The position numbers were made by a program, and so were the translations under genes. From NCBI RefSeq assembly GCF_004010195.1, contig NC_057719.1:31104957-31168956 (forward strand): a stretch of DNA of 64,000 nucleotides, in the 5' to 3' direction. Shown piece after piece: positions 5,255 through 60,049 of the stretch (the stretch's first letter is position 1; the number at the start of each line of letters is the position of its first letter). The notes beneath the pieces were generated by a model. The model was not told the DNA's origin and ran no database searches. It saw only the letters and a program-made list of their open reading frames with translations. The DNA is from Chiloscyllium plagiosum (lineage: Eukaryota).

Positions 5255-5535
5255 TACATATGAAAGAAGTGAAACTATCATGGTCATTCTAACAGATGAG
5301 AGACTCAACAAACAATCAAGGTATTTTTCAATGTATAATTTCAGTTACATCACACTGTAAACTTTTGCTATAAATTCTGTGTCTTACAATTGTGTCCTCC
5401 ACAACCACCTGATGAAGGAGCGGCGCTCCGAAAGCTAGTGTTTCCAATTAAACCTGTTGGACTATAACCCTGGTGTTGTGTGATTTTTTTAACTCTGTAC
5501 ACCCCAGTCCGACACTGCCATCTCCAAATCATGAC
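5255..5535 (+). mobile_element. Penelope-like element terminal repeat (pLTR) fragment carrying a hammerhead motif
   Basis: Same family as 13841-15340 and 52667-53130; contains the motif at 5403-5442. Confidence 0.75.
5403..5442 (+). ncRNA. minimal type I hammerhead ribozyme motif, intact core
   Basis: CAC-CTGATGA-A-GGAGC(GGC)GCTCC-GAAA-GCTA-GTG: core, 5-bp stem II, palindromic AGCT stem III, CAC/GTG stem I. Confidence 0.75.
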
Positions 5536-5962
5536 TACCTTTAACAGTACAGCACTTCTTCAGTCTGCACTCTACTGTTAGCATTGACTTTATTGCTGAA
5601 GCCCAGGAACCTGTGACTCAGGTGGCAGTGCTACCACTGAGCCATGCATAACACAATACTATGGATTTTTTAACCACATACTTAAGTTCAGCAACAATTA
5701 CTGAAGAAACAAAGAAGGCCTGACAGCATTAGTGGAGAAGAAAGCAGAGTTAATGTTTTGAGTTCAGTGAGCCTTCTTCAGTTCTATATCATCTTCACCA
5801 TTTGCCATCCTGCCTATCTTTGTGTCATCTACAAACTTGGCTATTGTACATTCACTTTCCATATCCAAGTCATTTATATATCATGTAAATAATTGTGGCT
5901 GCAGCATTAATCTCTGTGGCACACCACTAGTACAAATTTCCATCTGAAAAATGTGTTTATTA

Positions 5963-6275
5963 TTTATTCAGCCATGGGATGTGGGCATTGTTCGCTGGGC
6001 CAGTATTTATTATCCATCCCTAGTTGCCCTTGAGAAGGTGGTGAGCTGCCTTCTTGAACTACTGCAGTCCACATTGCTGTAGGTAGACCCACAATGCTGT
6101 TAGAGAACATGTTCCAGGATTTTGATCCAGTGATGCTGAAGAATGGCAATATATTTCCAAGTCAGGATGGTGAGTGACTTGGAGGGAAACTTGCAGGTGA
6201 TGGTTTTGCCAGGTATCCACCACCCTTGTCCTTCTAGAAAGTCATGGTCATGGCTTTGGAAGTTCTGTCCAAAGT
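5963..6275 (-). mobile_element. LINE 3' fragment (second family; tail shared with SINEs at 49210 and 51352)
   Basis: The tail ttcagccatgggatgtgggcatt...catccctagttgcccttgagaagg recurs at about 30449, 49215 and 51355, and on the + strand near 58900. Confidence 0.65.
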
Positions 6276-6709
6276 GTCTGCTTCAGGGTCTTGATAGATT
6301 AAATGCTGAGAGGATGTTTCCCTTCATGGGGGAGTCTAGGACCAAAGGGCATAGTTTCATAATAAAGGGTAACAGAATAAGACTGAATTGTGAATCTTTG
6401 GAGCCTCCTTACCACAGAGAGCTGAGAGGGCAGTGTCCTTATGTATATTTAAGGTTGCCATAGATTCTTGATCAGTAGGGGAATCAAGCATTATGGGAAA
6501 GGCAGGAAAGTAGATGTGAGGATTATCAGATCAGCCATGATCTCATTGAATAGCAGAGCAGTCTTGAAGGGTCAAATGGCCTTCTCCTGTCCTTATTTTT
6601 TATGATCTTCAGTGTCTGCAATTCTTTGTTTTATTTTTGTTTTACTTAAGTGGAACATCCAGTTTCAATGCAATTCCTAGGAGAGTGAATTGCTGTTAAT
6701 GGACACTGT

Positions 6710-6990
6710 TAGTGGCTAACAATAGGTAGTGTGTAATGGCATATCATGTGATAACAAGGCCTGGTGTGTGGGGTTGGGGGCTAGGATGTGACAGAGTTTA
6801 GTCCCTAAAATTATTGAACTCGATATTGAGTCCAGAGGGCTTAAAGTCCCCAAGCAGAAAATGAGGTGTTGTTCTTCCAGCTTACATAGAGCTTCGCTGG
6901 AACACTGCAGTAAACTTGAGACAGGGATGTTGGCCAGGGAACAGGGTGGTGTGTTAAAGAGTGTTAAACTGGAAATAATTGGAAACTTAA
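6710..6990 (-). mobile_element. Penelope-like element GIY-YIG C-terminal fragment
   Basis: ORF 6716..7069 contains KLEEQHLIFCLGTL, matching LEEQHLIFRL at about 57150. Confidence 0.75.
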
Positions 6991-13840: not shown

Positions 13841-15340
13841 CAGGATTTGGAGGTGCTGGTGTTAAACTGCGTGGACAGTTAAAAATCACACAGCACCAGA
13901 TTATAGTCCAACAGATTTATTTGGAAGCACTAGCCTTCAAAGCGCTGTTTCTTCATCAGGTGGTTGTGGAGCAGAATTATAAGACATAATTAATAGCAAC
14001 AGGATTGCAGTGTCATGGAATGTAATATTAAACAAATTTAGCTTGAGTCTTTCATCTTTTAGAATGATCATGTCAGTTTCAGTTCCTTCATGTGTAAATC
14101 CCAGAACTTTTTTAAAGTTACTTTCTCAAGATAGCTTTAACAATAGGTGCCATCTCAGCTCAGATAATGCATTGAAGGTGTGAGGTTAAAGTCTGTCTCC
14201 CAATGTTAGGTTAGACTGATTTTATTTCTAAAGTGGGATTTGCAGAATCTTACATGGATTTATGCAATTTTTGAGCAAAATAAAATTTAATTCTCCAAGT
14301 ACAAATTCACCCCACAAACTTATATGTGTGTGCGAGCAGGGGAGACCGAGTGAGTGTGTGCTTGTGGGGTGTGAGTATCTGTGAGAGAGTGTGTATATAT
14401 GTGTGTGTGAGTGTAATGGGGTAGACGTCTGTGAGAGGGTGCGTGTGTGGGTGGTGTGTATGTAGTGAATGTATGTGTGAGTATATGAGAGAGAGGGTCT
14501 GCATGAGTGTGTGGGTCTGTAGGGGTGTGTGTGTGTGGGTCTGTAGGAGTGTGTGTGTGTGTGTGTAAGAGAGAGTGTATAGTGTAGTGGGGTCACCTGT
14601 GACTTGACATGAACCCAACATCCCGGTTGAGGCCATTCCCAAGGGTATCAAACTTGACTATCAGCCTCTGCTCGGCTACTTTGCATGGTTGCCTGTCCTG
14701 AAGTCCGCCTTGGAGCATGGTTACCTGAAGTTCCAAGGCCGGCTGTCCCGGACTGCTGACACCGTGCAAGAATCCCAGTCGGGGAACACTTCAGTGGTCC
14801 AGGACATTCATCCTCGCGGATATTCACACCCCCAAATACACACCCACATTCACACACTCACTCGGTCTCCCCTGCACGCACACACACGCCTATAAGTTTG
14901 TGGGGTGAATTTGTGCTTTCAGAACTACATTTTACTTTGCGTGAAAACTGTATAAATTCATGTAAAATTCTGTAAATCCCACTTTAGAAACAGAATCAGT
15001 CTGACCTAACATTGGGACACAGACAGACTTTAACCTCGCACCTTCCATGCATTATCTGAGCTGAGATGGGGCCTATTGTTCAAGCTACCTCGAGAGTGTA
15101 ACTTTAAAAAAGTTCTGGGATTTACATATAAAGGAACCGAAACTGACATTATCATTCTAAACAATGAAAGACTTAAGCTAAATTTGTTTAATATTACATT
15201 CCATGACATTACAATCCTGTTGCTATAAATTGTGTGTCTTACGATGCTGCTCCACAACCACCTGATGAAGGTGCAGCACTTTGAAGGCTAGTGCTTCCAA
15301 ATAAACCTGTTGGACCATAACCTGGTGCTGTGTGATTACT
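13841..15340. mobile_element. Penelope-like element with inverted (tail-to-tail) arrangement
   Basis: About 13882-14370 is the reverse complement of about 14826-15337, with a (CA/TG)-rich interior. Approximate TSD ta(a/g)tttcagga; degenerate hammerheads near 13930-13960 (-) and 15262 (+). Confidence 0.85.
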
Positions 15341-15966: not shown

Positions 15967-16104
15967 GATTTGGAGAACCACTTCATTCTCAACCTTTAAG
16001 CAGGAGAGTACCTTTTGCCTCCTCCAGATTGTTAAATACACAAAGTCATAGTGTGGATTCTGACCTGCAATTTTTAGGAAATGGAAAGTTATCACAAGAC
16101 AAAG
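15967..16104 (+). CDS. TOGARAM1: TOGARAM1 internal exon (linker), phase 1-1, 138 nt
   Basis: ttag|GA...AAAG|gtatga. Translates (G)FGEPLHSQPLSRRVPFASSRLLNTQSHSVDSDLQFLGNGKLSQDK; the SDLQFLG motif matches vertebrate TOGARAM1 as recalled. Not in the ORF track. Confidence 0.85.
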
Positions 16105-16584
16105 GTATGAACTATTTATTCAATACTAATTAGCTTAAATTCCTTTAAACAGTTGTGATGCTATTACACTACCTTTAGTGTCTGACAAGCCAGTATCATT
16201 ACCAGACGTTAATATGATGTTATAAACCACAACAACTAAGTTTTTACCGCCTGCTGGACTGGGTGTGTATAATGACTTTTGTCCATATTCTGGTTTCTTA
16301 TTCTTGATAAAAATTCATGATTTAAGAAGCAATTAAATTCTAGATTGATTTTACTGTCTAATACTGAGGTAGTACCAAACTCTTTAATGTATTTTATGTT
16401 ACACTAAGAAGTCTGAAGAAGTTTAGCAATAAAGCTCAGTGAGCTATCAAGGGATTATATAGTTTTCAGTGTATTGTTTTGTTCCATTTCAGGTATAGTT
16501 CTATTTGCAAATAAGTATGCAAATGCATCATGATAGAAAAGGAAAGTAGCTAGTTTAAATTTAATTAGTAAAGAAATTAATAAA

Positions 16585-16830
16585 AAGGAAACACGCATTT
16601 ATATAGTGTCTTTCACTACCCTAGGAAATTCTAAATGCTTTACAGTCAATGGTATATTTTTGAAATGAACTCACTTGTGGGAAAGGTGTCAAGCAATTCG
16701 CTCATTGCACATTGTCACAAATAGCAAAGTGGTAACGACCAGCTAACTTATTTTTGTAATGCTGCCTGTAGGAGAAATATTGGCTTGGAGATTGGGGATA
16801 ATTTCCCTCCGCTTTTTGAAGTAATGCAGG
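16585..16830 (-). mobile_element. ancient Deu-domain SINE (SacSINE1/AmnSINE1-like)
   Basis: Reverse complement of the recalled Deu core and the ...ctatataaatgc tail. Related decayed copies near 5155-5250, 7370-7520, 39050-39335, 48110-48300 and 53620-53930. Confidence 0.55.
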
Positions 16831-16913
16831 AAATGAGGGTTAGGAAAGGAGATGTTTGCAATGGTTGGGGGAGAAGGCAAAGTAAGCAAATGCACGTATG
16901 TGGAGAAGGAAAG

Positions 16914-16996
16914 GAGGAAAGAAAAGAGGCACTGAAAATTGAGAGGTGAGGTGAGGAAAGAAAAGAGGCACTGAAAATTGAGAGGTGAGGTGAGGA
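16914..16996. repeat. 39-bp purine-rich tandem duplication (2 copies)
   Basis: gaaaagaggcactgaaaattgagaggtgaggtgaggaaa begins at 16921 and again at 16960. Confidence 0.9.
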
Positions 16997-17448
16997 GGCC
17001 TCACTGGGGGGAAGGGGCAGGAAAGGAGAAACATGCAAAATTTGGAGAGAGGAAAGGATAAAACCATGAGGGGGATTGGAAGGAATGGAGGAGACTGCAA
17101 ATAAGAGAGTTTTATACCTATCAGCAAAGGAATACTCAACTAACTGGAGACAGGAAAACCTAAAATTACTGAGGTCACAAATTCCTTGAAAATGCAAGTG
17201 TACTCACTAGTTAAAGCTCGCATAAGTCCAAGAGCTGTGGTCGAAAATGTGATGGAGGCTACTGTAATGAACACTGCTAATTGTTAAATTTAGATTTGAC
17301 ATGAGATTTAAGATGCAGTGAATAGGATATTTGCTGCCTGATTTAAAATGTTCCACTTCTATGCAAATACACTCAAAATGCATTAGCTGTGACCTTACCA
17401 GTCTGTGGAAAGTCAATTTATATTTGCGTAGGTATGTCTGTCAGTTAT

Positions 17449-20400
17449 TTAGAATCTCATACAGCAAGAAGGAGGCCATTTGACCCATTGTTTTTGCAGC
17501 TCCCAAAAGAGCTTGTACCACTCTCTAGGCCTATCTCTGTAGTCCTCTAAATTCATCATTGTCAAATCAAAATCCAGCTCTCCTTTGAAACCTTGTATGG
17601 AATCTACCTCCACCACTCTCCCAGGCAGCACACTCCAAATTCTAACAACTCTCTGATTAAAGAAGTTTCTCCTAATCTCAATCCTAGCTCTCTTGCTGAC
17701 TGTCTTGAAATTGTAAAGTCTAGTTACTGACATACCAACTAATGGATATCCTTCTTTGCCCTGTCAAAATTTTTCATAATTTGACATCTCAATAAAGTCA
17801 TGTCCTTTCTTCTTTACTTCAAGGAGAACGCCCAATTTCTCTAATCTTTCTTTTTATTTAAAGTCACTCATTAATGGTATCATTCTAGTAAATCTCCTTT
17901 GCACTCTCTCCAGGGCTTTAACATCCTTTCTTCAATAAGATACCTGAAACCGAATACAGTACTGCAAATATGGTCTGACCAATGACTTGTAGAGGTATAG
18001 CATCACTTCCTTAGCTTTTAGACTCTCTGTCTCTATTTATAAGCTCAAGGATCCTATAAGGGCTTCTTAACAACTGTTTAACTTGTCTGGACAGAGAATC
18101 ATGCACATCAATCCCGAGGTCCCTCTGTTCCTGCATTCCCCTCAAAGTTGTACTATTGAGCCTGTATTGTCTCTCTTACTTCTACCAAAATCTTTCATTT
18201 CTTCGCACTGAAATTTACTTGCCTGGTGTCTGCTCATTTGGTCAACTTGTCAATGTCTTTTTGAACGTGCTCAGAGTCATCTTCACATTCACTATTCTCC
18301 CTAGCTTAGTATCATTTGCAAATTTGCATCACCCATCTTCAAATAAACCCCCAAAAAATCAATCAACTCTTTTCCAATCTGAGAAATTCCCACCTATACC
18401 TGCCCTGTGTTCCCCCTTTTTTAGCCAGCTTCTAATCCATGCTACCAAGGACCCTTCAGTCCCAAACATTTCTCTTTTGCGAACCAAACTGCCATGTGGC
18501 ATAGTTTCAATTGTTTCCTGAAAGTCCAAATACACAACATCCATTGAAACACCCTCATCCAGCCTATGTCACCTTGTCAAAGAACTCAAATTTGTCAGAC
18601 ATGATCTGCTATTAACAAGACCATGTTGACTGACTAGTATAACTTATTTTTCTCCACCTTATCCTGTATTATGGCCTCCATCAATTTTCCCACTATTGCT
18701 TCAAGCTGACAGACCTGTAGTTTCCTGGGTAATCCTTTGGTCCTTTCTGAAATAGTGTTGACCCATTTGCAACCTCCAGTTCTCTGGGACAAATCCTGTG
18801 TTCAGGGGGGCCTGGAAAATTTCCATCAACAGCTCTGCAACATGCTCCCTTACATTTTCAGCAATCTATGATGCATCCCATCCTGGTCTGGTAACTTTGC
18901 TATTTGGAGTTCTGTCAGCCTTTTTGTCACTTCTTTATCTATCACTGCTCAGTTGCTCAATACCCATGTTTTCAAACAGGCCATTGTCATCATTTTCTAC
19001 TTTGGCAGTAACAAAAGCATTCATTTAGTACCTCTGCCATACCCTTTGCTTCAGTGAGCAGCTTACCCTGCTTATTCCTTATGGACACCACTCTATCCTT
19101 CACCAATCTTTCATTTTTAGCATGTTTAAAGAGCATTTTACTCAATTTTTTGTGCAGCCTGCCATTCTTTCTGTATGCTTAGCCTTCCTTATTCTAGCTT
19201 TAGTCCCTCTCCTGCATATGAGATGCTCTTCCTGATTTCATTGCTATTTTTATTCCAGTATGCTTCATATACCTCCTTTTCCTTCCTTATTTTTCTCATC
19301 AGTATTTTTAATCATCCAGGGTACTCTGGATTTGGATACTCTGTATTTATTTCTCATGGGTATATACCTAGCTTGTACTCTACACATCTCTCATTTGAAA
19401 TTCTTCCATTTTTCATCCACTGTTTTATCCACCAAAATTTATTTCAAATCAAATTTGCCCTTTTCCAGTCAGGAATCTTAATCATTGACCAATTTTTATC
19501 CTTTTCTAACTTCATACTGAACCTTATTATACTATGATCTCTATTTCCCATATGTTCCCCCATTCTGACATTCTCCACTTGGCCTACCTTATTTCCTAGG
19601 ACCACACCAAGCACAGTCCTGATTGGACTGGAAATATACTGTAAGTGAAAGTTCTCTTATACACATTACAGGGATTTCTTCTTTTCCATGCCCTACCTTC
19701 TACCTTCTTCCCAGCCTACTCAAAGATAATTGAAATCATCAACAATCACAACCCTACTTTACTTTCCAATTTCCATAATCTACCTCCAAAGGATCTCTTC
19801 TGTTTCGTCCCCACTATATCATAAATACTCAGCAAGGTCACTGCTGCAGTCCTGTTTATTACCTCTAACCATACAGATTCTGATTCATGAGCTGTTCAAA
19901 GGCAATGATATTATCTTTGAACAAGACTTCCTCCCTTTTTACCCCCCTCCCCGTTTCTACAAAAAGCATTATATCTATTGACCATCATTCTCTGTTTCCT
20001 ATCACTCAGCCAATTTTGTACTCATCTAGCTACTGACCATTTTAGAGCACAACCTATAATTTTCCTCAATGTATTATAAAAGCATTATCCAGCCCTTTTC
20101 TGGCTTGAGCCATGTTTCTGTCAATAACTACTATGTCAGATTCCCAAGAGCAATCTCTTCTCCTAGTTCCCCATTTTTATTTCATGATAATCTGTGCTTT
20201 ACATACGTCCAATTTAACTCTTCCCTTATCTCTTTCTTTCCCATTGAAAGGTGACGATTTCTTTGGTCACTGTCAACATGCAAGTCTTATCTCACTTTGA
20301 TTTCCCCCTTCCCCATTTTCTATTGCATGCCCTGTCTGATACTTAACAGGACTTGGCCCATTCATCAAATACCACCCCCCTCCCACCCCTCCACCTTACA

Positions 20401-20640: not shown

Positions 20641-20762
20641 ACTCCATAATTTCTGAAACTGATCCTGCAAGTCCTTTATGCTCTCTGTCCTTCTGTCATT
20701 GGTTCCCACATAAACCACAATCACTAGTTCTTAACAACAAATTCTGGATTGCAAAACCGGTC

Positions 20763-21102: not shown

Positions 21103-21114
21103 CATGAATATCAT

Positions 21115-21345: not shown

Positions 21346-21379
21346 CTGTGGTAACAAACCCTCCCTTTGCAGAAATTCA

Positions 21380-34285: not shown

Positions 34286-34286
34286 A

Positions 34287-37940: not shown

Positions 37941-37993
37941 CTTCACTATTAAGTGTAAACTGGAGATGAGTAGAAAGTATCAATTCTTTGCCC

Positions 37994-46490: not shown

Positions 46491-46519
46491 AGTCAAAACA
46501 TTCCAGTAATCAAAATTTT

Positions 46520-47745: not shown

Positions 47746-48336
47746 ATTTGTTTATGTTCACACTTGAAAGAAGATAGTGTAATTTATTTAAGGGGTTTTA
47801 TTGGCAAATAGGAAATGCAAAACTTGGACATTTTCACTGAGATCACTGATAGTTCTAGGAAAGTTTTTCCACACAGCTTATGGAGGAGCACTGAGTAACA
47901 GACTGCAGCTTCCAGACTGCCATGCTAATATCTGTAAATTATAGTCAATTTCAGAGGGGCAATGAAATGAGCCATTAGTCACCTTGCTTCCACAACCACT
48001 TTAAAATTGTGCCCCTTGGTTGGCTGAGCTACCAATCAAAGCAATCATGTTCATAAAGGAGTCTTTTCTTCTCCCCATTTTATACCCCTTCCACAGTCAC
48101 ATCCTCTAAATCTCAGTATGAGAGTCCGTGATCTATATTAAATTGGTTATCCGAAAACCCTGCTCTTAATGCTTACAGATCAGGAGCTGATTAAACTAAT
48201 AATTGCCGTATTTCTTTCCATTACAACACTGACTACATTTCATTGCTGTGAAACATTCTGAAACATCCTACAACTGTAAAAGATCTTGTGTATACAGGTT
48301 ATTGTTTTAAATTTAACCAACAAGTAACTGTTTTAG

Positions 48337-48429
48337 GACCGACAGGATCCACCTTTAGTATGCAGCAGGTGAACAACCATGATGCTGGAAATAGGTTCTC
48401 TGAGGACTCTGTCATCATTGTAGGAAAAG
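48337..48429 (+). CDS. TOGARAM1: TOGARAM1 internal exon, phase 1-1, 93 nt (alternative in-frame acceptor gives start 48346)
   Basis: ttttag|GA...AAAG|gtaggt. Encodes ...QQVNNHDAGNRFSEDSVIIVGK. Confidence 0.88.
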
Positions 48430-48716
48430 GTAGGTTTATTGATCATTTGTCCTTTTCCTTGTTCTCCATGTGTCGTGATGAAAAGCCTCTGAATTCTATT
48501 TAGTGAGAATCCTGCATTGCATAGAATGGCAGAGCTCTGCAGGATTCCCCACATTATTAATAAATAAACGTCTGTAATTCTATAAAATTCTTATGTTCAT
48601 TCTTTTAGTGGTACTGTAATATTTTTGTACTGCTATTTATAAAACAATAGAACTAGACATTGCATATTTGAAAACAAGGTAGCACTTTGCCATTTTTTTT
48701 GCTTTCTTCCTATAAG

Positions 48717-48895
48717 GAGTCTTTGGCAGTCCTCAGTCAGTTCCATTAGCAAACAGCCAAGCCATTATCTCATCTCTTGATAAGGATGAAATGGGTGACC
48801 GAAAACAAACAATGGATCCTCCTTCGGGAGTCTATGGAAGAGCTGTACCTCAGAGTTGTCAACCTGGATTTGATGGTTCAGAGAATGAGAAAGAG
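48717..48895 (+). CDS. TOGARAM1: TOGARAM1 internal exon, phase 1-0, 179 nt
   Basis: Polypyrimidine tract then taag|GA...GAG|gtaatg. Encodes GVFGSPQ...MDPPSGVYGRAVPQ...ENEKE. Not in the ORF track. Confidence 0.92.
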
Positions 48896-49209
48896 GTAAT
48901 GCTACAATAACACTTTCTCAACAGGAGGTGATCAGGTTTAAAACAAAAGAGCTGGTAAGCAAGTGAAGTCTTAGGATGTTAATCAGTTTCTTGATGGTAC
49001 AGGACTTGAGAATTGCTGAAGAAAGAAACATATTCAAGATTTTCATTTTGCACTCATAAAGGCAGAAGCACAAATGGAAACTTCAGAAGGAGCAATAGTA
49101 AAGGCTGCATGAGAAAGACTGCTTGTTTGGCAAGTTGAATGGTTTAAAGGTGTTGACAACACCTAAGCCAATCAAAGTTGACTTGGCAATCTTGCCATGA
49201 AATATAGTT

Positions 49210-49545
49210 TTTTTTAAAATTCATTCACAGGCTGAGGGCATCGCTGTCTGGATGCATATTTATTGCCCATCCCTAATTGCTGACAGCGCAGGTAAGAGAC
49301 AACCACACAGCTTTGGGTTTGGAGTCACATGTAGACCAGATCAGGTAAGGATGGCAGTTTCCTTCCCGAAAGGACATTAGTGAACTGCAGGTGTTTACAA
49401 CAATGAATTCATGGTCGTCTTTGACCATAGACTTTTGATTCCAGATTTTGTTTTTGTTGAATTCAAATTTCACCATTTGCCATGGTGGGATTTGAACTTG
49501 GGTCCCCAGGCTAACAGTCCAGTGATAACACCACTAGGCCAACGT
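49210..49545 (-). mobile_element. tRNA-derived SINE nested within an old inverted hammerhead-bearing element
   Basis: Minus-strand head ctagtggtgttatcactggact...gttcaaatccc; LINE-derived tail at 49210-49275. Confidence 0.75.
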
Positions 49546-50645
49546 TTCCCCTTTTGATTTGTTTGTTGCTTCCTTTGAAACTTGGCATATTTTTATCTGT
49601 CCTAATGAGTGCAAGATGAAAAATATCAAGAATCTGTTTTTGCAGACATATTACAGTATAAATTACAGTATTGTCAAGAGTGAACTCTTCTGATTTGTAC
49701 ATACAGAGTAATACACATTGCTGTTTTAAAATACCCATCCAGAGAAACTTTTATATGAGCTCTTGTCAAGCATTCTCATTTTAGCTTTGTTTCAGGGCTA
49801 AGTTAACTCAATTACTGTATTAATATGCCACAATCTTAGTTTCAGAAGTCATTATGTATAGATTACACTTGTTATTCAGTTGATTCAGTTTTATGTCGCA
49901 AAATTATGATCATAGTGAATTTATTTGAGACTAAAATATACTTATGATTACAATATTATGAGCAGAGTGACAGAACTTGCATTCAATCTGTGTCAAATAG
50001 ATTTAAATCAAGTAACTTGGGCAAATTGAAGAAGGTGGCACACCACCACTTTTTCAAGGGCAATCGGAGAAAGCAATAGATGCTTGCTGTGCCACAAATT
50101 TGCACATCCCAGGAATGTATCTTTAAAAAGAGTTAACGCATAATTGACAGAATTATACCACAAGATTTTAAATGAAAACAGACTTTGTTGTATTTTGGAA
50201 AAAAAAAGAAATAAGTGCAATTTACTTTCCACTAAACCTGGAAAGATCTCGGCTTATACTCAGTTCTACATTTTACTAACCGTAACCCCCAAATTTGAAT
50301 TGTTTTTAAGGTTATTACCAGTTTCTTTATCAGAATTTTTTATTACCTTACATTAATGCATTAATCTCCTAAATTTAAAGTCATATTCTAAAACCTATGG
50401 ATTATAATTTAGATATTCACAAAAGAATTCACAATACATGATACGTTTTCATGTGAAGCTAATATCACTTGTCTTTATTAATTAGCACATGCTAGAGCAA
50501 CTTAATTGAGAGACAGATGAACGATTAAACATGAATATCCAAGAGTTGCTTTTCAGGTTTCTTTATTAAAAAAGGCATCTCACAGTAGAAAACACCATTG
50601 AAGTATATTGAATGAGGTTAAATTGCTGTGTTTGCGCATATGGAC

Positions 50646-50850
50646 TAGAGTCATGGAGATGTACAGCACGGGAACAGACCCTTTGGTCCAAGTCGTCCAT
50701 GCCGACCAGATATCCCAACCCAATCTAGTCCCATCTGGTCGACATGGACGGGTTAGACCGAAGGGTCTGTTTCCATGCTGTACCTCTCTATGACTCTAAA
50801 TGTTGCAATCGTATTAGCCTCCACCACTTCCTCTGGCAGCTCATTCCATA
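50646..50850. repeat. CR1 tail foldback (66-nt inverted arms, 21-nt loop)
   Basis: 50646-50711 pairs with 50733-50798. Confidence 0.85.
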
Positions 50851-51351
50851 AACTACCGAAAAAAGATTTAGCCTTATTCTTTCAAGTCCAACTGTTCTTT
50901 TCATGCAGTTTTTCTTTACTTGTCTATTTTTCCCTCAATTCAGTTTTTTCTTTATTCTTCTGCATTTAGTTTTCGGATTTAACATTAAATCAGAGAGGGT
51001 GAGATCTCACTTCCTTCTCAGTGCTTGTACTATTTCATTATTCTTCAAGCTGAGTGATGAAGGAGATCATAACTGCTTGCACTGTCCACTCTGGTACCAG
51101 ATGCCATGTTTTTTTTAGTGCTGTTATTTGCTTACTCTTTTTCAACTTAAGACACCACGAAATAGAAATCCTAATCATGCAAAAGTAATGGTAGTTGCCA
51201 CTAGATGCTGTATTGCAACACTTTGAAATCTACTCTTCGTGGATTATTTACAACTTTATAGTTCTTGGATTACCTCAGAATTTAAATTTTATCATCTAAA
51301 CCTGCAGCCTTTTTTTATTATTTTAAAGTGCACAAATCTGTTGAAAATAGT

Positions 51352-51710
51352 TTTTTCATTCTTTCATGGGATATGGGCATAACTGGCAAGACCAGTAAAT
51401 GTTGCCCATCCTAATTTCCCTTGAATGGAGTGTTGGCAAAGTCATTGTAGAAGGCAATTAAATGTCAACAACACTGTTGTGAGTCTGGTGACATATGTAA
51501 GCCAGACAGGGAAAGAATGGCAGATTTCCTCCTCCCATAGGACATTCATAGTGCCACTACTACTGGTCACCACTACTGTCTCTACCTTTATATTGCAGAT
51601 TTATTAAATTAACTTAAATTCCACATACTGCCACAGTAGGATTTCAACCAATATGCCAACAGCATTTGCCTGGGCCTATGGATTATTACTCCAGTGACTT
51701 TGCCACTAAA
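51352..51710 (-). mobile_element. tRNA-derived SINE, same family as 49210-49545
   Basis: Collinear similarity along head, body and tail. Confidence 0.7.
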
Positions 51711-51768
51711 TCAATGCGTTATAACGATAATGCAAGATAAAAAAAACTACTAATTCAGTTGTAACACC

Positions 51769-52297
51769 TGTGACAAAGCTGCTCCTTTAACAAGGTTATG
51801 TTGTCCTTGGTGATTTTTCAGAGATGTCATAAAAGACGCAGACTAAAAGTCTAAATTGAAGAGTTTTAGGGCCAGTTTGATTATAGCTAACAGATACTGC
51901 CTCAGAAAACAGGCTTTCAAGTTTTTGAAAAAAACACTTGTACAATGAAAGGGGAGTGGTCATTTCTCCCAGCTCAGTTTTTATCTGGTCTGGTTTGGTT
52001 TTTAGCAGGAGTGTTTTGAAGCTGCTGGATCAAAGGAAGCAGGTCGAGGTTGGTACTCTCTCTCTCTGACTTCTCTCCTGCAAGACCCTGTGTTGATTTT
52101 TGTGCCAAGGGGTGTTTTTGGGGATTGTGTTTCATTTGGTAATCTTGTAAACAAACTCTGTTTTGTTTGAAACTAAGTGGTTTGATCAGTGGCATCTCTC
52201 CTGGAATATTCACTGTACACCTGCTTAAAACAACTCGCAAGTTAGAGTCTGGGCTACCTTCTTGAAATGTTTTGAGGTGTCTGGCTGGTCTATTACA
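51769..52297. mobile_element. solo LTR, same family as 38379-38939 but opposite orientation
   Basis: tgtgac...attaca ends; approximate TSD cacc/cact. Confidence 0.8.
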
Positions 52298-52666
52298 CAC
52301 TCTACTATGAATTTCAAATTTCCAAAAGAATGTAATCTTAGTTTTGGTTTTTTTATTTGACTTAAATATGTGTATATAAATAATCATAAATTGTCATTGG
52401 GTTGTAAAAAAAAATGAAGGTTCTGAAAGAATTCACATTTTGTCAAAACGTTTTGTCTTCCACTCATCAGTCAATTCACAAGATTATCAACTAAAGGGCA
52501 AAACCAACGTTTATTCTGTATGAAAGGAAGGTGCTAATTGGTTGGCAGGTAGACTCTGATTTGCAAAGTTGCGTCAAGGAGGTGGCACTAGTTAGTGATG
52601 ACTGACAGCTAACTTGCCATTCTTTGTTTAAATTTTAAACCAGGGAAGTTAACTCTGATTGTTCAA

Positions 52667-53130
52667 AGTTAAAAATCACACAACACCAGTTCATAGCACA
52701 AAAGGTTTATTTGAAAGTACAGGCTTTCAGAGTGCTGCTCCACGCCGGGCAGGATACATAGGACACAGAATTTATAAGCGAAAGATCGAACTGTTATACA
52801 AGTGATGCAATGTATTAGATAAAGCTAGATGGCTGTTAAGTCCTTAGTTGCTTAGAATGGGGATGCAGGTTTTGATTGATTGATTAATATATAAATCCCA
52901 GAATTTCTTTCAAGTCACTGCCCCAAGATAACTTAAGGTTTTATCAGTATATAAAAAAGTGACATCTCAGCTCAGACAATGCATTAAAGGTGTGAGGTTA
53001 GACACTGTCTGTATCCCAAATTGTAGTCAGACTGGTTTTATTTCCAAAGTAGGAATTTATAAAATGTCACTTTAACTGCCTACACATTGTATGCTTTTTG
53101 AACAAAATAGAACATATCTGCAAATGCAAG
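52667..53130 (-). mobile_element. Penelope-like pLTR fragment
   Basis: Collinear with 13877-14310; hammerhead partly deleted. Confidence 0.75.
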
Positions 53131-53949
53131 ATTATGGTTTGTTTGTTACGAGCAGCCGAAGATGTATGCTATTTAGTACAATCCACCAGTCTCCGTAATG
53201 TACAGCTTACATATATTGGTATTGAAATTTGTGTACCATGTTGCTTATTTGTGTGACAGGCAAAACATCTTTTTGACTTGATGACAATATCTTGCTCAAG
53301 GGTCTAGCGTGGAATTTGAACCCAAATTATTCTGACTTGGAGCTGACCACTCATATTGCAACTTTATAGTAGCAATTTGAAAGAGCTAGCTTCACCTGTA
53401 GCGCAAACCTTTGAGAAACATTACCCTAATCTGAGGTAGACTGAGCCTTTTTCAGACCAAGAGGATGGCTTTATGGCTTCATGAATTTACTCAAAATATT
53501 GCAAGAAAAGCTCCAGTCAAGGCAACCATTATCACACACTGCTCTTTCCCCAAAAACTCCAAACATGAGAATTTTAAATAGCATTTCTGTAATTGAAGAG
53601 AAATCTTCTGCAGAATATCAGCTTGATTGTGTTATAATTCTTACCTAAAAGTCAGAAGGTTGTGAACCAGGCTCCATGGCGCATACCTTTGGGATACGAA
53701 AAGATCGCTAAGTTGTCTGAGATACTTTACTTCACTTGAAATGATGACTTGGTACATTATCTAATTGGGATAGTGGATAGTAAAATAAGACAAAATTAGT
53801 AATCTAGTCAACATTTCTCTCAGTAAAACCAACCAAAAATTTGTTTTAAATCCTATTGCTTTTTGGGAAACTTATAATATACAAAATAGTTGCTGCATTT
53901 ACACAACAAACTATAACTGAACTTAATTGATTGAGACTTGATATGATAT

Positions 53950-55255
53950 GGCCTGGGTAGTGTTGTAGAACAGAGAGACCTATGGATTCAGGTACATGAT
54001 TCTTTGAAGTTTGCATCACAGGTATCTAGGGTGGTTGAGAATGCGATTAGCACTCCTTGCATTCATGAGTCTCAGACTTTTCTGTATTGTTCTGTATTGG
54101 AGTTGGTATGTCATGTTGAGGTTGTACAGGATATTGGTGAGACCTCTTCTGGAGTACTGTGTATAGTTCTGGTCACCCTGTTATAGGAAGGATATTATGA
54201 AATTGGAGAGGTTTCAGAAAAGAATTTACCATTATGTTGCTGAGAATGGAAGGTTTGAGTTATAAAAATAGGCCAGATAGGCTGTGACTTTTTTCACTGG
54301 AGCACAAGAGGTTAAGGAGTGATCTTATAGAGGTTTATAAAATCATGAGGGGCATAGATAAGATAAATAGGGAAGGTTCAAAACTTAGAGGACATATATT
54401 TTAAAGTGAGAGGACAAAGTTTTTAAAAATGGATATGAGGGGGAACATTTCTACACAGAGGGTGGTTCATTTGTGGAATGAACTCCCAGAGGAAGTGGTG
54501 GATGCAAGTACAGTTACAATATTTAAAAGACATTTACATAAGTAATGAATAGGAAAAATTTAGAGGAATACGGGCCAAACACAGACAAGTGGGACTAGTT
54601 CGGTTTAGGAACATGGTAGGTGGATAAGTTGGACTGAAGGGTCTGTTTCCATGCTCTATGACTGTAAATCGTTTGGGATGTCCTGAGGTACAAATTGCTG
54701 GTGAGACTACATCTGGAGTACTGTGCGCAGTTTTGGTTCCTTTATTTAAGAAACTATCTTATTTCATTGGAGTCAGTTCAGATGAGGTTTGCTCGAATGG
54801 TCCCTTTTATAGAGGAATTTCTTATGAGCGAAGGTTAATTAGATTGGGACTCTCCTCATTAGAATTTAGAAGAATGTAAGGTGGTCGTATTGAACCATAT
54901 AAGATTCTTAAGAGGCTTGATAGGTTAAATACTGAGATGATGTTTCCTCTCATGGGAGAGTCTAGGACCAGAGGGCATAATCTCAGATTAAAGGGGCAGC
55001 AATTTAACACTGAGCTGAGGAGGAATTTCTTCTCTCAGGGCTGAGTATCTTTGGAATTCTTTGCCACAGGGAGATATGGAGGCAGAGTCCTTGTTTATGT
55101 TTAAGGCTGATATAGATTCTTGATCAGGGAATCAAGATTTAGGGAAAGAGCATAAAAGTAATCATGAGAAATGTTGTATCAGCCGTGATTCTATTGAATA
55201 GTGAAGCATGTTCAAGGGTTGAATGGCATACTCTTGTTCCTATTTCTGTGGTCTT
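53950..55255 (+). mobile_element. two consecutive CR1 3' fragments (about 53950-54665 and 54680-55255)
   Basis: Each shows LVRxxLEYCVxFW through the 3' UTR; the second ends about 45 nt before the 55301 exon. Confidence 0.85.
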
Positions 55256-55300
55256 ATGGAGGTTGTGAAAATGTGTATAATTGAATATTTTTCTTTAAAG

Positions 55301-55472
55301 ATTTCCATGTCAAAATCAGCTTGGGATAAAATGAAGCAATGGAAACGCGAAGGAGTGCAACCATATGATTCAGAGGAACAAGGTGATCATAATTTCAAGG
55401 ATCATGTAAAGAAGGAAGAACGATCACATCAAAGACCAAGGAATATGGATATAAGCAAAACACAAAATGAAA
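55301..55472 (+). CDS. TOGARAM1: TOGARAM1 internal exon, phase 0-1, 172 nt
   Basis: tttaaag|ATT...GAAA|gtaagg. Encodes ISMSKSAWDKMKQWKRE..., similar to the recalled human VSISKSTYNKMRQKRKE. Confidence 0.9.
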
Positions 55473-56330
55473 GTAAGGTTACTGGATTGGTCAACTTCTG
55501 TTTTTTGTAATTTACAGCTTTTTTTTTCATTTTGTGAAAGAAAGGTCTACAACTTCTTGTTTAATCACTAGTTTACAAGTGCTTCAACTTCTGTGTTGCA
55601 ATCAATATAGCCTCTAATTTCATTGAAAATTTATAAACAATTTGTTCAAGTGCACAAATCATTTTTTTTTCTGTAAATCATTTTTTTAAAGTACTTAGAT
55701 AACTTAAAGTGACCGACGTATTTTACATCCTTTGCAATCTATATTTTCCTTCTACCCTCCCCAGCCAACCTCGTGTTCTATACCTCCACACTCTTCCCTT
55801 TAAATATCCTCACCAGCTTTTCTAACAGTGGCTTTTCTTCCAAACCCTGCAATACTGTTGCCAGTGTTCTTGAGGATCACCTCATCTATACGTATCCCCT
55901 TGATCATGATATGGTGGCAGCCTTCACATTGCACCAAAGATACCTCGTTCCATCCATTCACTATTTCTATCCTGTTGGACTGTTTATCTGATATCCAGTC
56001 TAACTTGCTCCAGATAAACATTGAGAATACCAAAAACATTTAGTTTCATTTCTGCTTTAAATTCCATGGCCTGACCACAGATTTCCTTCTATTACTAATT
56101 ACTGTGTTAGATTACATCAGGCTTCTCACAATTTCAGCACTTCATTGATTGCTGAGACAAGGCATCATGACCTTTCTGTCATGGTGGACCTAATGCTATC
56201 TCTAATATTAGTTGTATCGTTCATGTCAATCAATCTTACTGCTTAAAACCCATTCAAGACTTTGTCACCTTTACCTCATTTTGATAATATTGACATTGTT
56301 AGCAACCTTTTTTGCGTCATCTTCCCTCTG

Positions 56331-57534
56331 TCCCATCTCGGACAATTCCCTCTCCTTTCTTGACCTCTCCGTTTCCATTTCTGGCGACAGTCTGCATACA
56401 GATGTTTACTACAAACCCACAGACTCCCATAACTACCTAGACTACACCTTCCACCCAGTAGCCTGCAAGAACTCCATCCCTTTCTCCCAAATCTTCTGCC
56501 TCCACTGCATCTGCTCGGACGAGGAGACATTCCACTCCAAAGCATCCCAAGTGTCCATCTATTTCGAACAATATGCTTTTCCTTCCACTGTCATCCAGAC
56601 AGCCCTCCACTGCACCAGTTCCATTCCCCGTTCCACTGCTGTAAACATCCCCTCTCCTCCAAACGCAATAAAGACAGAGATCCCCTTGTCCTCACCTACC
56701 ACCCCACCTGTGTCCGCATTCAACATATCATCCTTAAACAATTCCGCCAACTCCAACTAGACCCCACCACAAAGAACACCTTCCCCTCCCCACCCCTCTC
56801 TGCCTTCCACAAGAACCATTCCCTTCGACATTACTTGGTTTGCGCCACTCTCCCCATCAACCCCCCCGAACCACCAATCGGAAAGGTGCAAAACCTGCCA
56901 GCATACCACCCCCTCACCTCCATCCAGGGCCCCAAACAGTCCTTCCAGGTGAGACAGAGGTTCACCTGCCTCTCCTCCAACCTAATTTACTGTATCCATG
57001 CTCCTGATGTGGTCTTCTCTAAATCAGGGAGCCCGTAGGGGCTGACCAGACCTCCCAGACACCACACATTTTAATTCCCCTTCCCACTCCCTTTCCGACA
57101 TGACCATCCTTGGCCTCCTCCATTGCCACAATGAAACAAACCACAATTTGGAGGAACAACACCTCATCTTCCGCCTGGCAGCATACAGCCCAGAGGACTC
57201 ACATTGCGTCCTCCAATTTCAAATAACCTCCCTTCCCAGCTCCTCCGCCCCGCCCCCCCACCCTTTCTTTCCTCCCTGCCACCAACTGGACTCATTCCTC
57301 CCATTGACCAACCAGATCATACCCTCTACCTGTCTTTACTAATCCCCACTTCACCCCCTGTCCCCCGCTACCCCCTTCTTTATCTGCAGCTCCCCCTGCA
57401 CCCACTCCCAGTCCTGAGGAAGGTTTACACCCGAAAAGTCGACTTCTCCACCTCCTGATGCTGCCTGGCTTGCTGCTTTTTTCCAGCATCCTGCCTGTCT
57501 ACTTTAGATTTCCAGCATCTGCAGTTTTTTTGTC
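56331..57534 (+). mobile_element. 5'-truncated Penelope-like retroelement (RT thumb, GIY-YIG remnant, pLTR with hammerhead)
   Basis: SLSFLDLSV...VYYKPTDSHNYLDY...KNSIPFSQ, FTCLSSNLIYCI and LEEQHLIFRL motifs; 14-bp TSD tcatcttccctctg (56317-56330, 57535-57548); hammerhead at 57410-57444. Confidence 0.93.
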
Positions 57535-58109
57535 TCATCTTCCCTCTGGCAATGGTAATGCAAGGATCGGAAGAAAGGCCACTCTCTGATTTTCCTAGTC
57601 GATACAAACTCCTCCTTTCACCAACCCTTCATTTTGCAGCCTTTTCCACTCCCTTAGCCACCCTCTTGCTACTCATTTCTCCCCCTCCTGAATCCTTACT
57701 GTGAAATGAGCAGTGAGAGTCTTGATTCAGAAATGATGCCTTGTCAGATCACGTGGCCTTATGTTAGACCAGCATGAATGTCTTTAAACACAAACCCAAG
57801 ATGCTAAACAAGTATATAGATGCCTTTAACTGCCTACTTCTATAAACCAGAACATTATTGAACTAAGGTGTATTATAGTGGAGATTCTAGCCATAATTAA
57901 GCTTTTTGGTTTTTAAATGGAGGGTTTTTTGATATGATTGTTACATTTACAAATTAATGAGCTTCACATTGTGCTCTTGTGCACTTTTAATTTTCTTTTC
58001 CTTGTAAAAAACAGAACCAAAATTATTGGAGGACTTAGAAATCATACTCCAAAGTTTAAAGTATTATTTTAAGTATTAACTTCTGAGAGTATTTGTCTTT
58101 TTAATTTAG

Positions 58110-58241
58110 GTTTGAGCACCAGCAATGATATGCTCCTTCAGTTGAAGTCTGATTCTTCATCAATAGAAATAGCAACTCTTGTTTCTTCGCAACATAAGCT
58201 TAGCACAAGGAAACATCGAACTTCCAACACATCAAACTCTG
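58110..58241 (+). CDS. TOGARAM1: TOGARAM1 internal exon (candidate cassette), phase 1-1, 132 nt
   Basis: atttag|GT...TCTG|gtaaga. Open frame SLSTSNDMLLQLKSDSSSIEIATLVSSQHKLSTRKHRTSNTSNS; strong splice sites and correct phase. Confidence 0.75.
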
Positions 58242-59302
58242 GTAAGAAAAGTATGTTCAATTTATAAGTTTACCAAAATTAATCACTTCTCATTTCTCGG
58301 CATTCAGTTCCATCTATTACTGTTTTTTCATTCCACCAACTGATGTTATTTTGAATTCTACTGTACTCACCTCACTAATTTTATAGAGAATATAAAAATA
58401 ATACTAGAACAACCAGTAAGGAGAGAACATAGATCTAAGGTGACCTAAAAGAACCAGAGGCTGAAAATATGAAAAAAACTTTTTTACCTGAGAAATTGTT
58501 GCAATTTAGAAGGTACTACTTAAAAGGGTGGGCAAATCAGATTAAGTGGCAGTAGTCAAAAGAGATTTTGATAAATACTTTTTAAAAAAAAAGAAAATCA
58601 CAGGCATATAAGGAATGAGCAGGAGTGTGTAATTAATTAGATTGTGTAACAAAGAGTCAATAGAGGAATGAAGGATCAAATTGCTCTTTCCATGCTATGA
58701 AAATAATTTCAGTGATATGAAAGCTTTCACCTTATCTCCACCACATAGAACGACATGGACAGCACAGGAGGACCACCACTAGTAAGATCCCTTCCCGTTC
58801 CAAGCAACACACTATTCTGACTTCATGCTGTATTGCCATTCCTTTACTGTCTTGGAATTCCCTCCATCACAGCACTATGCTACATGTACCACAGCAGTTC
58901 AAGAAGGCAGCTCAACTCCAGGACAATTAGGAATGGGTAATATGCTGGCTATAGAACAACATCCATATCTCAAGAAGGACTTGTTTTTAAAACAAACTCT
59001 CTTCAAAATCAGATGACTTCCACAGGGAAGTTTCTTTTTAAAAAAAAGCTGCAGAGGATCAAAGTATTTCTTTCAGAATGATTTCTTTTAGCCTTGCATC
59101 ACCTTTCTGAAAGCTTGAAGCAACAAGTCTATTTTAGTGTTTATTGCAAAGTAGAATCCTTCTTTCATTCTTAAGTTCTATCCAGGTTCTTGAGGTTTGA
59201 ATCATTTACAACTAGATCCAAAATTATTTCCATTTGTGGTGAACAAAATCAACGTGAATTTACAGAAGTATTGACAAAAGTTTCTTTTATTCCCTATAAT
59301 AG

Positions 59303-59459
59303 GAGGGGAGAATGCTCCATGTCCTAGATCATCACGCAGGGATCAAACACCTGCAGTTTTGCACAGTCCAGAAGTAGTAGATCTTTCTGAATTAAGACCT
59401 TTCTCCAAACCAGACCTTGCACTCTCAGAGGCTCTTAAACTTTTATCTGACGAAGACTG
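59303..59459 (+). CDS. TOGARAM1: TOGARAM1 exon, start of TOG3, phase 1-2, 157 nt
   Basis: aatag|GA...GACTG|gtatgg. Encodes LHSPEVVDLSELRPFSKPDLALSEALKLLSDED(W). Not in the ORF track. Confidence 0.95.
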
Positions 59460-59856
59460 GTATGGATTTCTTATTTTCTTTTGATTAACATCAGAATTCT
59501 CTGCATTGAGGTTATGTGGTTATCTAAATCATATAAACCAAATTTTCCTATTGAATGAAACAATGAGACAAAGGAGCTAGAGCCCATCGAGTCTGCTCTG
59601 TCATTCAGTGAAATCATGGCTGTGGTGATCATCTGTAACTCCTTTATTCTTATTCTGATAACCCTTCATTTCCTTACTGATTAAAAATCTTTCTAACTCA
59701 ACTTTGGTTGTTAAGCATATTCAAGGTTGAGATAGACAGATTTTTAATTAGAAGGGAATCAAGAGCTGTGGAGATAAGGCATTAAAGTGAAGTTGAGGCT
59801 TATCAGATCAACTATTATCTCAATGAATGGTTCAGCAGACTTGCGAGGTCAAATGG

Positions 59857-60049
59857 GAGAAAGTGAGGAGATCAGAGTCGAAAAGTGTGATGCTGGAAAA
59901 GCACAGCCGGTCAGGCAGCATCCGAGGAACAAGAGAGTTGATGTTTCGAGCATAAGCTCTTCATCAGGAATGGGAAAAGAGCTGATGAAGAGCTTATGCT
60001 CGAAACATTGACTCTCCTGCTCCTCGGATGCTGCCTGACCAACTATAAT
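59857..60049. mobile_element. back-to-back inverted hammerhead element nested in a CR1 tail
   Basis: Two CTGATGA-A-GAGC(TTAT)GCTC-GAAAC motifs diverge from about 59975; TSD aggtcaaatgg (59846-59856, 60050-60060). Confidence 0.88.

What the first reader, a model, noticed from the sequence alone, without database searches (positions are those of the whole stretch)
5403..60015. Dense set of minimal hammerhead motifs from several families with covarying stem II
Seen: more than 15 intact or degenerate CTGANGA-A-stem II-GAAA motifs, for example at 5409, 15262, 21131-21204 (two), 21218, 26287, 31466, 39733, 40920-40990 (two), 44861, 46072, 57414 and 59932-60015 (two). Stem II differs but stays paired: GGAGC/GCTCC, GGGC/GCCC, GAGC/GCTC, GAGTC/GACTC, and (allowing for decay) GGGTC/GACCC. 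Stem III is a 4-nt palindrome (ACGT or AGCT) in the intact copies. Established: Penelope-like elements carry such minimal hammerheads, which cleave best as dimers through the palindrome. Inference: about five separate ribozyme-bearing lineages colonised this one gene, implying a very large genome-wide ribozyme load.
Basis: partly seen in the sequence, partly recalled or inferred. Interest (0 to 1): 0.7.

Follow-up and report, generated by a model that had tools for sequence, protein, structure and literature searches.

The report
Retroelement ribozyme relics in shark introns
The introns of this shark gene hold about twenty leftover ends of Penelope-like jumping genes, each with the small self-cutting RNA motif already known for such elements, and most of them are decayed and probably do nothing here.

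Summary
The motifs are real. The window lies within a bamboo-shark-like TOGARAM1 gene. It holds 20 minimal type I hammerhead copies (11 sense, 9 antisense) and 2 tail-only fragments, all intronic. They are 3' ends of Penelope-like elements (PLEs): three copies lie just downstream of RT/GIY-YIG-like remnants. Five head-to-head pairs are read as single inverted insertions (3 of 5 have target duplications), so there were about 15 events. There are two deep lineages and 5-6 families. Stem II and helix I change compensatorily between families, as described for PLEs in 2014. Only 7 of 20 keep the catalytic core, and 3 of those keep the palindrome. CpG decay hits both G12 and the palindrome, and arms of one insertion diverge as fast in the core as outside it. 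One intact copy is absent at the matching site of a related organism. Read depth suggests at least about 10^4 copies of that family. This is a new host example of a known class, inert at this locus; the scan found it before in other shark windows. One loose end: 11 of 20 copies start within 5 nt of the core, which may mark the element's RNA 5' end.

The parts
5200..5530 (+). A1: family A PLE end; intact minimal hammerhead (C3 5409, 5-bp stem II, AGCT palindrome, CUA site at 5437, 3-bp helix I) plus tail; homology extends at least 150 nt upstream of C3
5690..5785 (-). C6: decayed family C copy (C3 5781, G12 lost)
13846..14860 (-). A2: family A PLE end with GIY-YIG C-terminus-like remnant (14605-14787), hammerhead (C3 13959, A15.1 changed to G) and tail; primary arm of an inverted insertion with a 12-bp target duplication (1 mismatch)
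14856..15337 (+). A3: inverted, tail-less arm of the same insertion (C3 15262, broken stem II, shares A15.1G); arms 10% diverged
21105..21169 (-). F1: head-to-head arm (C3 21165, G12 lost, ACGT kept); its tail abuts a SINE-like repeat
21166..21205 (+). F2: partner arm (C3 21170, first core box broken, stem GAGTC/GACTC); the two arms share the 4-nt helix I strand AGCT
21214..21343 (+). B1: intact-core hammerhead (C3 21218, weak 3-bp stem II, ACGT, GUC site at 21245, helix I 2 bp then U.U) plus tail
25718..26240 (-). E3: PLE end with GIY-YIG C-terminus-like remnant (25993-26240), decayed hammerhead (C3 25843) and tail; primary arm, 9-bp target duplication
26230..26385 (+). E4: inverted tail-less arm (C3 26289, G5 lost)
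31437..31545 (+). A4: family A copy with internal deletion of stem II to the site (C3 31466), short inverted tail piece upstream, 12-bp target duplication (1 mismatch)
39724..39830 (+). C1: core intact, palindrome CpG decayed (C3 39733), 6-7-nt inverted remnant upstream
40858..40956 (-). C2: tail-less inverted arm (C3 40954, G12 lost)
40955..41092 (+). C3: primary arm with tail (C3 40957, G5 lost); the two cores are 2 nt apart
44857..44985 (+). B2: young intact copy (C3 44861, GGGC/GCCC, ACGT, GUC site at 44888), 12-bp target duplication (1 mismatch); empty site in a related organism
   Evidence: (table 8, record 9)
46008..46111 (-). C4: decayed family C copy (C3 46106, G12 lost)
46180..46319 (-). 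C5: family C copy with degenerate 5' core, ACGT kept, full tail
52655..53057 (-). A5: old family A end, first core box lost (about 52745)
56335..57537 (+). D1: 5'-truncated PLE: broken RT C-terminal and GIY-YIG region (56335-57261), 3' UTR, hammerhead (C3 57414, 4-bp helix I, palindrome broken) and tail
59857..59981 (-). E1: primary arm with tail (C3 59967, core and stem II intact, palindrome CpG decayed); 11-bp exact target duplication around E1/E2
59982..60042 (+). E2: shorter inverted arm starting at C3 59982, no helix I
31757..31852 (-). Tail-only B fragment without hammerhead
1931..1981 (+). Tail-only C-like fragment without hammerhead
15975..61174 (+). Host gene TOGARAM1: 13 coding exons between these coordinates; every hammerhead copy is outside them, 415-10566 nt from the nearest mapped exon

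Best explanation
The motifs are the type I minimal hammerheads of the terminal repeat (pLTR) of Penelope-like retrotransposons. They were left in TOGARAM1 introns by about 15 insertions from two deep PLE lineages (5-6 families). In the active element the motif has no stem III of its own; two copies (or one helped by the element's protein) pair through the ACGU/AGCU palindrome and cut after GUC/GUU/CUA. That step is taken from published work on other species, not shown here. Insertion is inferred to use uncleaved RNA, with reverse transcription starting about 100-135 nt downstream of the core and usually stopping early, often right at helix I. A fold-back or template switch there gives the head-to-head pairs, in which the second arm lacks the 30-40-nt tail. 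Selection for pairing acted on the master elements, hence the compensatory changes between families. After insertion the copies decay neutrally, fastest at two CpGs that fall on C11.1-G12 and on the palindrome, so they are inert passengers of the pre-mRNA.
For: SHOWN. Motif counts far above controls. PLE protein remnants lie directly upstream on the same strand of D1, E3 and A2 (tblastn; the query proteins carry weak, mostly sub-cutoff RVT_1 and GIY-YIG hits). Target duplications of 9-12 bp flank A2/A3, E3/E4, E1/E2, B2 and A4 (5 of 11 sites tested). The tail is on one arm only in A2/A3, E3/E4 and C2/C3. In the B-F alignment 76.9% of cells pair (0/500 shuffles reach this) and 4 of 7 pairs change on both sides. 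The palindrome CpG is intact in 3 of 14 scored B-F copies, TG/CA in 10, other in 1; the C11.1-G12 CpG is TG/CA in 8 of 14. Arm mismatches are 11/65 in the core vs 30/173 outside. No strand bias, 11:9. B2 is missing at the matching site in organism B. ESTABLISHED: PMC4209133 (families of min-HHRs, opposite-strand pairs, low dimer activity); PMC8557442 (inverted truncated copy, one-sided tail); PMC11167929 (internal RT start, protein-assisted cleavage, HHR dispensable for insertion in vitro).
Against: No full element with two pLTRs is in the window, so the link of families B, C and F to a PLE ORF rests on the tail they share with D and E. RNAalifold found no consensus structure on the B-F alignment. 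The shuffle control ignores relatedness, and 154/500 shuffles reached the count of pairs with two-sided change. Only 2 of 20 copies pass the published descriptor with helix I >=3 bp; the young B family has 2 bp then U.U. The modelled double hammerhead is 7-19 kcal/mol above the minimum-energy dimer. No target duplication was found for 6 of 11 sites tested. No cleavage was measured.
Confidence: 0.88

Rival explanations
1. The short copies (B, C, F) come from dedicated short non-autonomous masters, or from run-off at the RNA 5' end, that begin at helix I. They are then 5'-complete products of a PLE-dependent SINE- or retrozyme-like unit rather than random truncations. This is compatible with the best explanation and differs only in where the short copies come from.
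For: 11 of 20 copies begin within 5 nt upstream of C3 (B1, B2, C1-C4, C6, F1, F2, A4, E2); 2 begin 14-60 nt upstream, 6 extend more than 150 nt, 1 is unclear (read by eye). Loose contig ends before 44857 agree poorly (0.35-0.51), so many copies have unrelated DNA there. The family upstream letters read TCATTC (B) and TCAGTT (C) with A at -4, like the metazoan initiator consensus (recalled, not from a call).
Against: Small sample, boundaries called by eye, and arms of one insertion are not independent. Loose-end consensus shows that many B copies do run on upstream. No tandem array contains a hammerhead. In D. virilis the start site is at 371 and C3 at 496, not at helix I.
Confidence: 0.3
2. 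One or more sense-strand intact copies (5409, 21218, 44861) cut TOGARAM1 pre-mRNA as cis or trans dimers and affect its processing.
For: All three fully intact copies are on the sense strand. B2 and A1 fold into a hammerhead-like monomer shape. Family B RNA is present on both strands in one RNA run (3375 of 12.96 million reads laid on the stretch), so trans partners may exist.
Against: No intron holds two free, intact sense copies. Sense arms of head-to-head pairs are locked in long hairpins of -48 to -130 kcal/mol. B2 is absent in a relative. The core is not protected. Published min-HHR dimers cleave weakly (PMC4209133), and 8 of 9 Xenopus retrozyme dimers gave no product (bioRxiv 10.64898/2026.07.22.740005).
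Confidence: 0.04
3. The conserved motif serves the shark elements mainly as a protein-binding or promoter signal and no longer cleaves.
For: Family B helix I is only 2 bp before a mismatch. A2 and A3 share A15.1G, which suggests that a template with a damaged core was mobilised. HHR mutants did not impair insertion in vitro (PMC11167929).
Against: All families keep the catalytic boxes and an NUH site, and helix I, stem II and the palindrome change compensatorily between families. The shared A2/A3 change could also be gene conversion between the arms.
Confidence: 0.1

Closest known systems
Minimal hammerheads (min-HHR) of metazoan Penelope-like elements (Cervera & De la Pena 2014, PMC4209133)
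   Same: CUGANGA plus one extra base, G10.1-C11.1, GAAANNUH with palindromic 15.1-16.1, short helix I; several families per genome with compensatory changes; mostly solo copies from truncated PLEs; opposite-strand pairs.
   Different: Host is a shark; no chondrichthyan appears in its Table S1 or Fig. S3 text. Family B has 2 bp of helix I then U.U and fails the published >=3 bp rule. One family alone may match or exceed the 4,000 (coelacanth) and 9,000 (Xenopus) totals.
EN+ PLE insertion anatomy (Craig et al. 2021, PMC8557442; Frangieh et al. 2024, PMC11167929)
   Same: 5' truncation, inverted truncated copy, 30-40-bp tail on one end, hammerhead near the 3' end, RT then GIY-YIG.
   Different: Here 4 inversion joints (F1/F2, C2/C3, E1/E2, A4) lie at the hammerhead's 5' edge. 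No tandem pLTR pair is in the window. The clade (Neptune or Poseidon) was not resolved.
Non-LTR retrozymes (bioRxiv 10.64898/2026.07.22.740005; reported there in one chondrichthyan)
   Same: Short non-coding type I hammerhead units related to PLE pLTRs.
   Different: Retrozymes are tandem arrays with a hammerhead in each unit; these copies are solo or head-to-head.
Canonical and ultraconserved intronic type I hammerheads (Rfam hammerhead families; human RECK-type HH9/HH10, family names recalled)
   Same: Same catalytic core, intronic position.
   Different: No 6-bp helix I with loop-loop contacts, no stem III, no Rfam match, no conservation at the one site tested.

Membership tests
PLE min-HHR | Core boxes CUGANGA and GAAANNUH | tested here: met
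   Intact in 7 of 20 copies, one core change in most others
PLE min-HHR | Extra base between A9 and 10.1, and G10.1-C11.1 closing pair | tested here: met
   Extra base is A in 15 of 15 correctly framed copies but one (C3 has G); 10.1 is G in 13 of 15; C11.1 is often T by CpG decay (F1/F2 rows were misframed and left out)
PLE min-HHR | Stem II of 3-7 bp with compensatory changes between families | tested here: met
   Stems of 3-5 bp; 2 of 3 counted stem II pairs change on both sides, 86% of cells paired; relatedness not controlled
PLE min-HHR | Helix I of at least 3 bp (published descriptor) | tested here: inconclusive
   2 of 20 pass the whole descriptor (A1, D1); C3 and C4 have 4-5 bp but broken cores; B1 and B2 have 2 bp, U.U, then 2-3 bp
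PLE min-HHR | Palindromic 15.1-16.1 in place of stem III | tested here: met
   AGCT (A1) and ACGT (B1, B2, F1, C5); the others differ mostly by CpG transitions
PLE min-HHR | Located in the terminal repeat downstream of an RT/GIY-YIG ORF | tested here: met
   D1, E3 and A2; B, C and F only through the shared tail
PLE min-HHR | Self-cleavage as dimer or with protein help | not testable with these tools
   Needs an in vitro assay; folding energies are not decisive
EN+ Penelope-like element | Single ORF with RT then GIY-YIG | tested here: inconclusive
   Broken remnant 56335-57261 aligns to proteins with RVT_1 and GIY-YIG matches, most below Pfam cut-off; no full ORF in the window
EN+ Penelope-like element | Two direct pLTRs flanking the ORF | tested here: not met
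   Only truncated ends; no ORF is flanked by two same-strand copies of one family
EN+ Penelope-like element | Inverted 5'-truncated copy and one-sided 30-40-bp tail | tested here: met
   5 inverted pairs; tail on one arm in A2/A3, E3/E4, C2/C3; E2 is shorter still; F cannot be judged
EN+ Penelope-like element | Clade assignment (Neptune or Poseidon) by RT tree | not tested
   Only a CxxC-like remnant at about 56880; no tree was built
Non-LTR retrozyme | Tandem units each with a type I hammerhead | tested here: not met
   None of 10 Tandem Repeats Finder rows overlaps a motif
Canonical Rfam hammerhead families | Match to a curated covariance model | tested here: not met
   0 hammerhead families among 15 listed matches at E<=10

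The most novel reading that the evidence does not exclude
In shark PLEs of the B-F lineage, the first base of helix I is the RNA 5' end (an initiator-like TCA(K)TY overlapping the ribozyme). Internal reverse-transcription start plus run-off then mass-produces 130-140-nt hammerhead-plus-tail inserts, and snap-back at that end makes head-to-head pairs. This would give sharks 10^5 or more hammerhead relics, the largest vertebrate count reported, kept harmless by CpG decay at G12 and the palindrome. Cleavage in the element would then clip off a capped leader of about 32 nt.
Probability: 0.22. Interest if true: 0.55.

Novelty: new member of a known kind. Interest (0 to 1): 0.24.

Why it matters
It adds sharks to the hosts of PLE minimal hammerheads. 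One young family may have 10^4 or more copies, which would allow deep covariation analysis and a test of what the ribozyme does for the element, still an open question (PMC8557442, PMC11167929 passages). It also warns that motif counts are not counts of active ribozymes: 3 of 20 copies are fully intact. It says nothing specific about TOGARAM1.

Tried and rejected
No whole genome is held, so no genome-wide scan or R-scape test was possible. Rfam: no hammerhead match; the best hits were sub-threshold miRNA models on the 59902-60048 hairpin, which is the inverted insertion. A family pattern gave 0 matches in metagenome and in viral contigs. RNAalifold gave no consensus structure. Alignment A3 misplaced family A by one column, so pairs were not counted on it; the model built from it was sequence-only and added no convincing copy. 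Weak hits at 28484, 45659 and 58964 and the descriptor hit at 48400 were inspected and rejected. PDB search of the 60941 exon: 0 hits. No holder run was on record as RNA, which is no evidence on expression. RNA run X22 showed no pile-up of read starts or ends at the site, but that library type is unlikely to show one; X23 laid 0 reads. A tandem F2-B1 heterodimer (48 nt apart) was considered and rejected: F2's core is broken and it pairs with F1. Lunse et al. (PMC5785218) is not held; it is known to me only through PMC6765202. A search for PLE, hammerhead, transcription start, initiator and truncation found 0 papers. Supplements of the bioRxiv preprint were not seen and may give shark counts.
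Full report
Setting. The window is animal DNA (38.6% GC, one 719-nt gap), rich in CR1-type LINE pieces (RVT_1, endonuclease and GDSL-like matches). The exon at 60941-61174 is 99% identical to Chiloscyllium punctatum TOGARAM1, with other sharks next. tblastn with that protein maps 13 plus-strand exons from 15975 to 61174, residues 726-1493 of 1881. The whole window is therefore inferred to lie inside the gene. No whole genome is held.

Observation. Seeded nhmmer, profile HMMs and inspection give 20 hammerhead-bearing copies and 2 tail-only pieces; the decoy gave none. All are outside exons. With the descriptor from the supplement of PMC4209133, 2 copies pass as published, 4 with helix I relaxed to 2 bp and 7 with no helix I requirement. 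The means in 200 Markov controls were 0.02, 0.03 and 0.17. Seven copies keep the core (5409, 21218, 39733, 44861, 57414, 59967, 59982); three of them keep the palindrome. Rfam has no matching hammerhead model.

Families. Over the motif and 60 nt of tail, family A is 79-84% alike within and 45-61% to the rest, near background for this global alignment. B (90% within), E (75-81%), C (68-86%) and D share a tail beginning GATGCTGCC and are 57-81% alike between families (15 of 20 copies compared, F and A4, A5, E2 left out). F aligns with C. So there are two deep lineages and 5-6 families. B and E differ only at diagnostic sites.

Covariation. On the 17-row B-F alignment, 7 pairs (4 helix I, 3 stem II) were counted: 76.9% of 104 cells paired (0/500 shuffles), 11 cells with two-sided change (2/500), covariation score 4/500, but pairs with two-sided change 154/500. 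Slid controls paired 12-42%. The tool warns that relatedness alone can beat the shuffles, and RNAalifold found no consensus structure. The pattern is convincing by eye between families: G-C or A-U at stem II pair 2, C-G or U-A at the first helix I pair, AGCU or ACGU palindrome. It is not a formal significance test.

Link to Penelope-like elements. The frame at 56302-56757 hits five proteins, three from rays and sharks at 55-68% identity. These carry RVT_1 and GIY-YIG matches, mostly below the Pfam cut-offs. Used as tblastn queries they mark 56335-57261(+), 26240-25993(-), 14787-14605(-, E 5e-4) and 6958-6836(-). The first three lie 150-650 nt upstream of D1, E3 and A2 on the same strand. Five head-to-head pairs exist. 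Target duplications of 9-12 bp flank A2/A3, E3/E4 and E1/E2, and also B2 and A4; 6 of 11 sites tested gave none that was clear. In A2/A3, E3/E4 and C2/C3 one arm carries a further 35-40 nt. This matches the inverted truncated copy and one-sided tail in passages of PMC8557442. Counting pairs once gives about 15 insertions.

Decay. Arms of one insertion differ by 10-22%, with 11/65 mismatches at core positions and 30/173 elsewhere (Fisher p=1.0). Two CpGs sit on functional positions: the palindrome is CG in 3 of 14 scored copies and TG/CA in 10, and C11.1-G12 is TG/CA in 8 of 14. Sense and antisense copies are 11:9 (p=0.82). No intron has two free intact sense copies, and paired arms form long hairpins.

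Outside evidence (stretch 44600-46450, 85% likeness). In organism B, one contig joins 44600-44817 to 44989-45381 with 22 letters between, an empty site, so B2 is a young insertion. 104,410 and 135,411 contigs were laid from X1 and X13. Summed word depth over B2 was 5.0-5.3 million against 4.8 for single-copy DNA (X1), and 16-23 million against 41 (X13). The tool says this is no copy number. Dividing by the largest overlap inflation (31) gives about 1-4 x 10^4 as my rough lower bound; the undivided ratio is 4 x 10^5 to 10^6. The window's own density is one relic per 3.2 kb, from a window chosen for being dense. Among the 40 variant rows shown of 204, the family majority differs from B2 only in the tail. 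Opposite-strand joints near the motif recur in both DNA runs (15 of 1307 joints shown). RNA run X22 laid 3375 reads on both strands with no start or end pile-up; X23 laid none.

Mechanism. Shown: anatomy, PLE linkage, decay, youth of one copy. From papers: min-HHR monomers did not cleave and dimers cleaved weakly (PMC4209133, main text parts 1-2 of 4 and the supplement's text). In an anole PLE, reverse transcription starts internally at two sites, the hammerhead cleaves only with protein, is dispensable for insertion in vitro, and no RNA-seq ends were found at its site (PMC11167929, parts 1-2 of 4). Inferred: the shark copies came from uncleaved RNA, since 20 of 22 span the site, and fold-back at the 5' edge of the core made the pairs. 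The C2/C3 joint has the cores 2 nt apart, F1/F2 share one 4-nt helix I strand, and E1/E2 join at a TCAG/CTGA match.

Loose end. Eleven of 20 copies begin within 5 nt of C3. The family upstream letters resemble an initiator with +1 at the first base of helix I (consensus recalled; letters). D. virilis Penelope differs: start at 371, C3 at 496 (PMC2377424 passages and section 15). This is the novel case, at about 0.2.

Prior art. PMC4209133 reports 4,000 and 9,000 min-HHRs in 6 and 8 families in coelacanth and Xenopus, and opposite-strand pairs. The 2026 preprint (parts 1 and 3 of 5 and passages; supplements not seen) reports retrozymes in one chondrichthyan. Searches found no paper on shark PLE hammerheads; this library lacks most subscription papers. 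Also seen as passages only: PMC6155905, PMC6765202, PMC8455134 (nothing used). Earlier notes of this scan reached the same reading on other shark DNA. My reading was written before I saw them; their 'tens of thousands' prompted the depth test.

Verdict. Observation confirmed, interpretation partly supported, new member of a known kind, interest 0.24.

Noticed in passing
window 44908-44975 and the matching tails of B, C, D, E copies: The shared tail folds into a long hairpin closed by GAUGCUG/CAGCAUC in B2, C3 and D1; it may be the RT initiation or protein-binding stem-loop. The pairs are nearly invariant, so they give no covariation evidence.
   Followed up: partly
window 44914-44937 (and other B-E tails): The tail contains a branch-point-like CTGAC about 15-20 nt before a pyrimidine run and CAG, resembling a 3' splice site; sense copies could act as cryptic acceptors. 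Consensus recalled; not tested.
   Followed up: no
window 6600-7100 (-): PLE endonuclease C-terminus remnant with a 3' UTR but no hammerhead, a short internal inversion (6794-6831 vs 6985-7022) and a plus-strand tail-like piece at about 6600-6650.
   Followed up: partly
window 35109-37574 (+) and 10037-11641 (+): CR1-type LINE copies; the first has an open GDSL-esterase-like ORF1 and endonuclease domain and spans the 719-nt assembly gap.
   Followed up: no
window 20760-21103 (-): Young-looking SINE-like repeat with a perfect (AGATT)8 end abutting the F1 tail; related copies at about 62356-62479 and 63033-63137.
   Followed up: no
window 21200-21217: B1's upstream letters resemble a 10-letter linker seen between two hammerhead halves in organism B contigs (table 5c, depth 669 vs 41), so tandem or snap-back B units may recur in the genome.
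   Followed up: partly
window 13846-15337: The two arms share three motif changes including A15.1G, suggesting either mobilisation of a catalytically damaged template or conversion between arms.
   Followed up: partly
window 58106-58243 (+): This TOGARAM1 exon is only 72% identical to the C. punctatum protein, while the other 12 are 92-100%; possibly an alignment edge or an assembly error.
   Followed up: no
window 37994-38180: 91-bp unit duplicated in tandem at 98% identity.
   Followed up: no
window 12298-12633 (+): ALKBH8_N-type match typical of L2/Rex1-like retroelement ends (association recalled).
   Followed up: no
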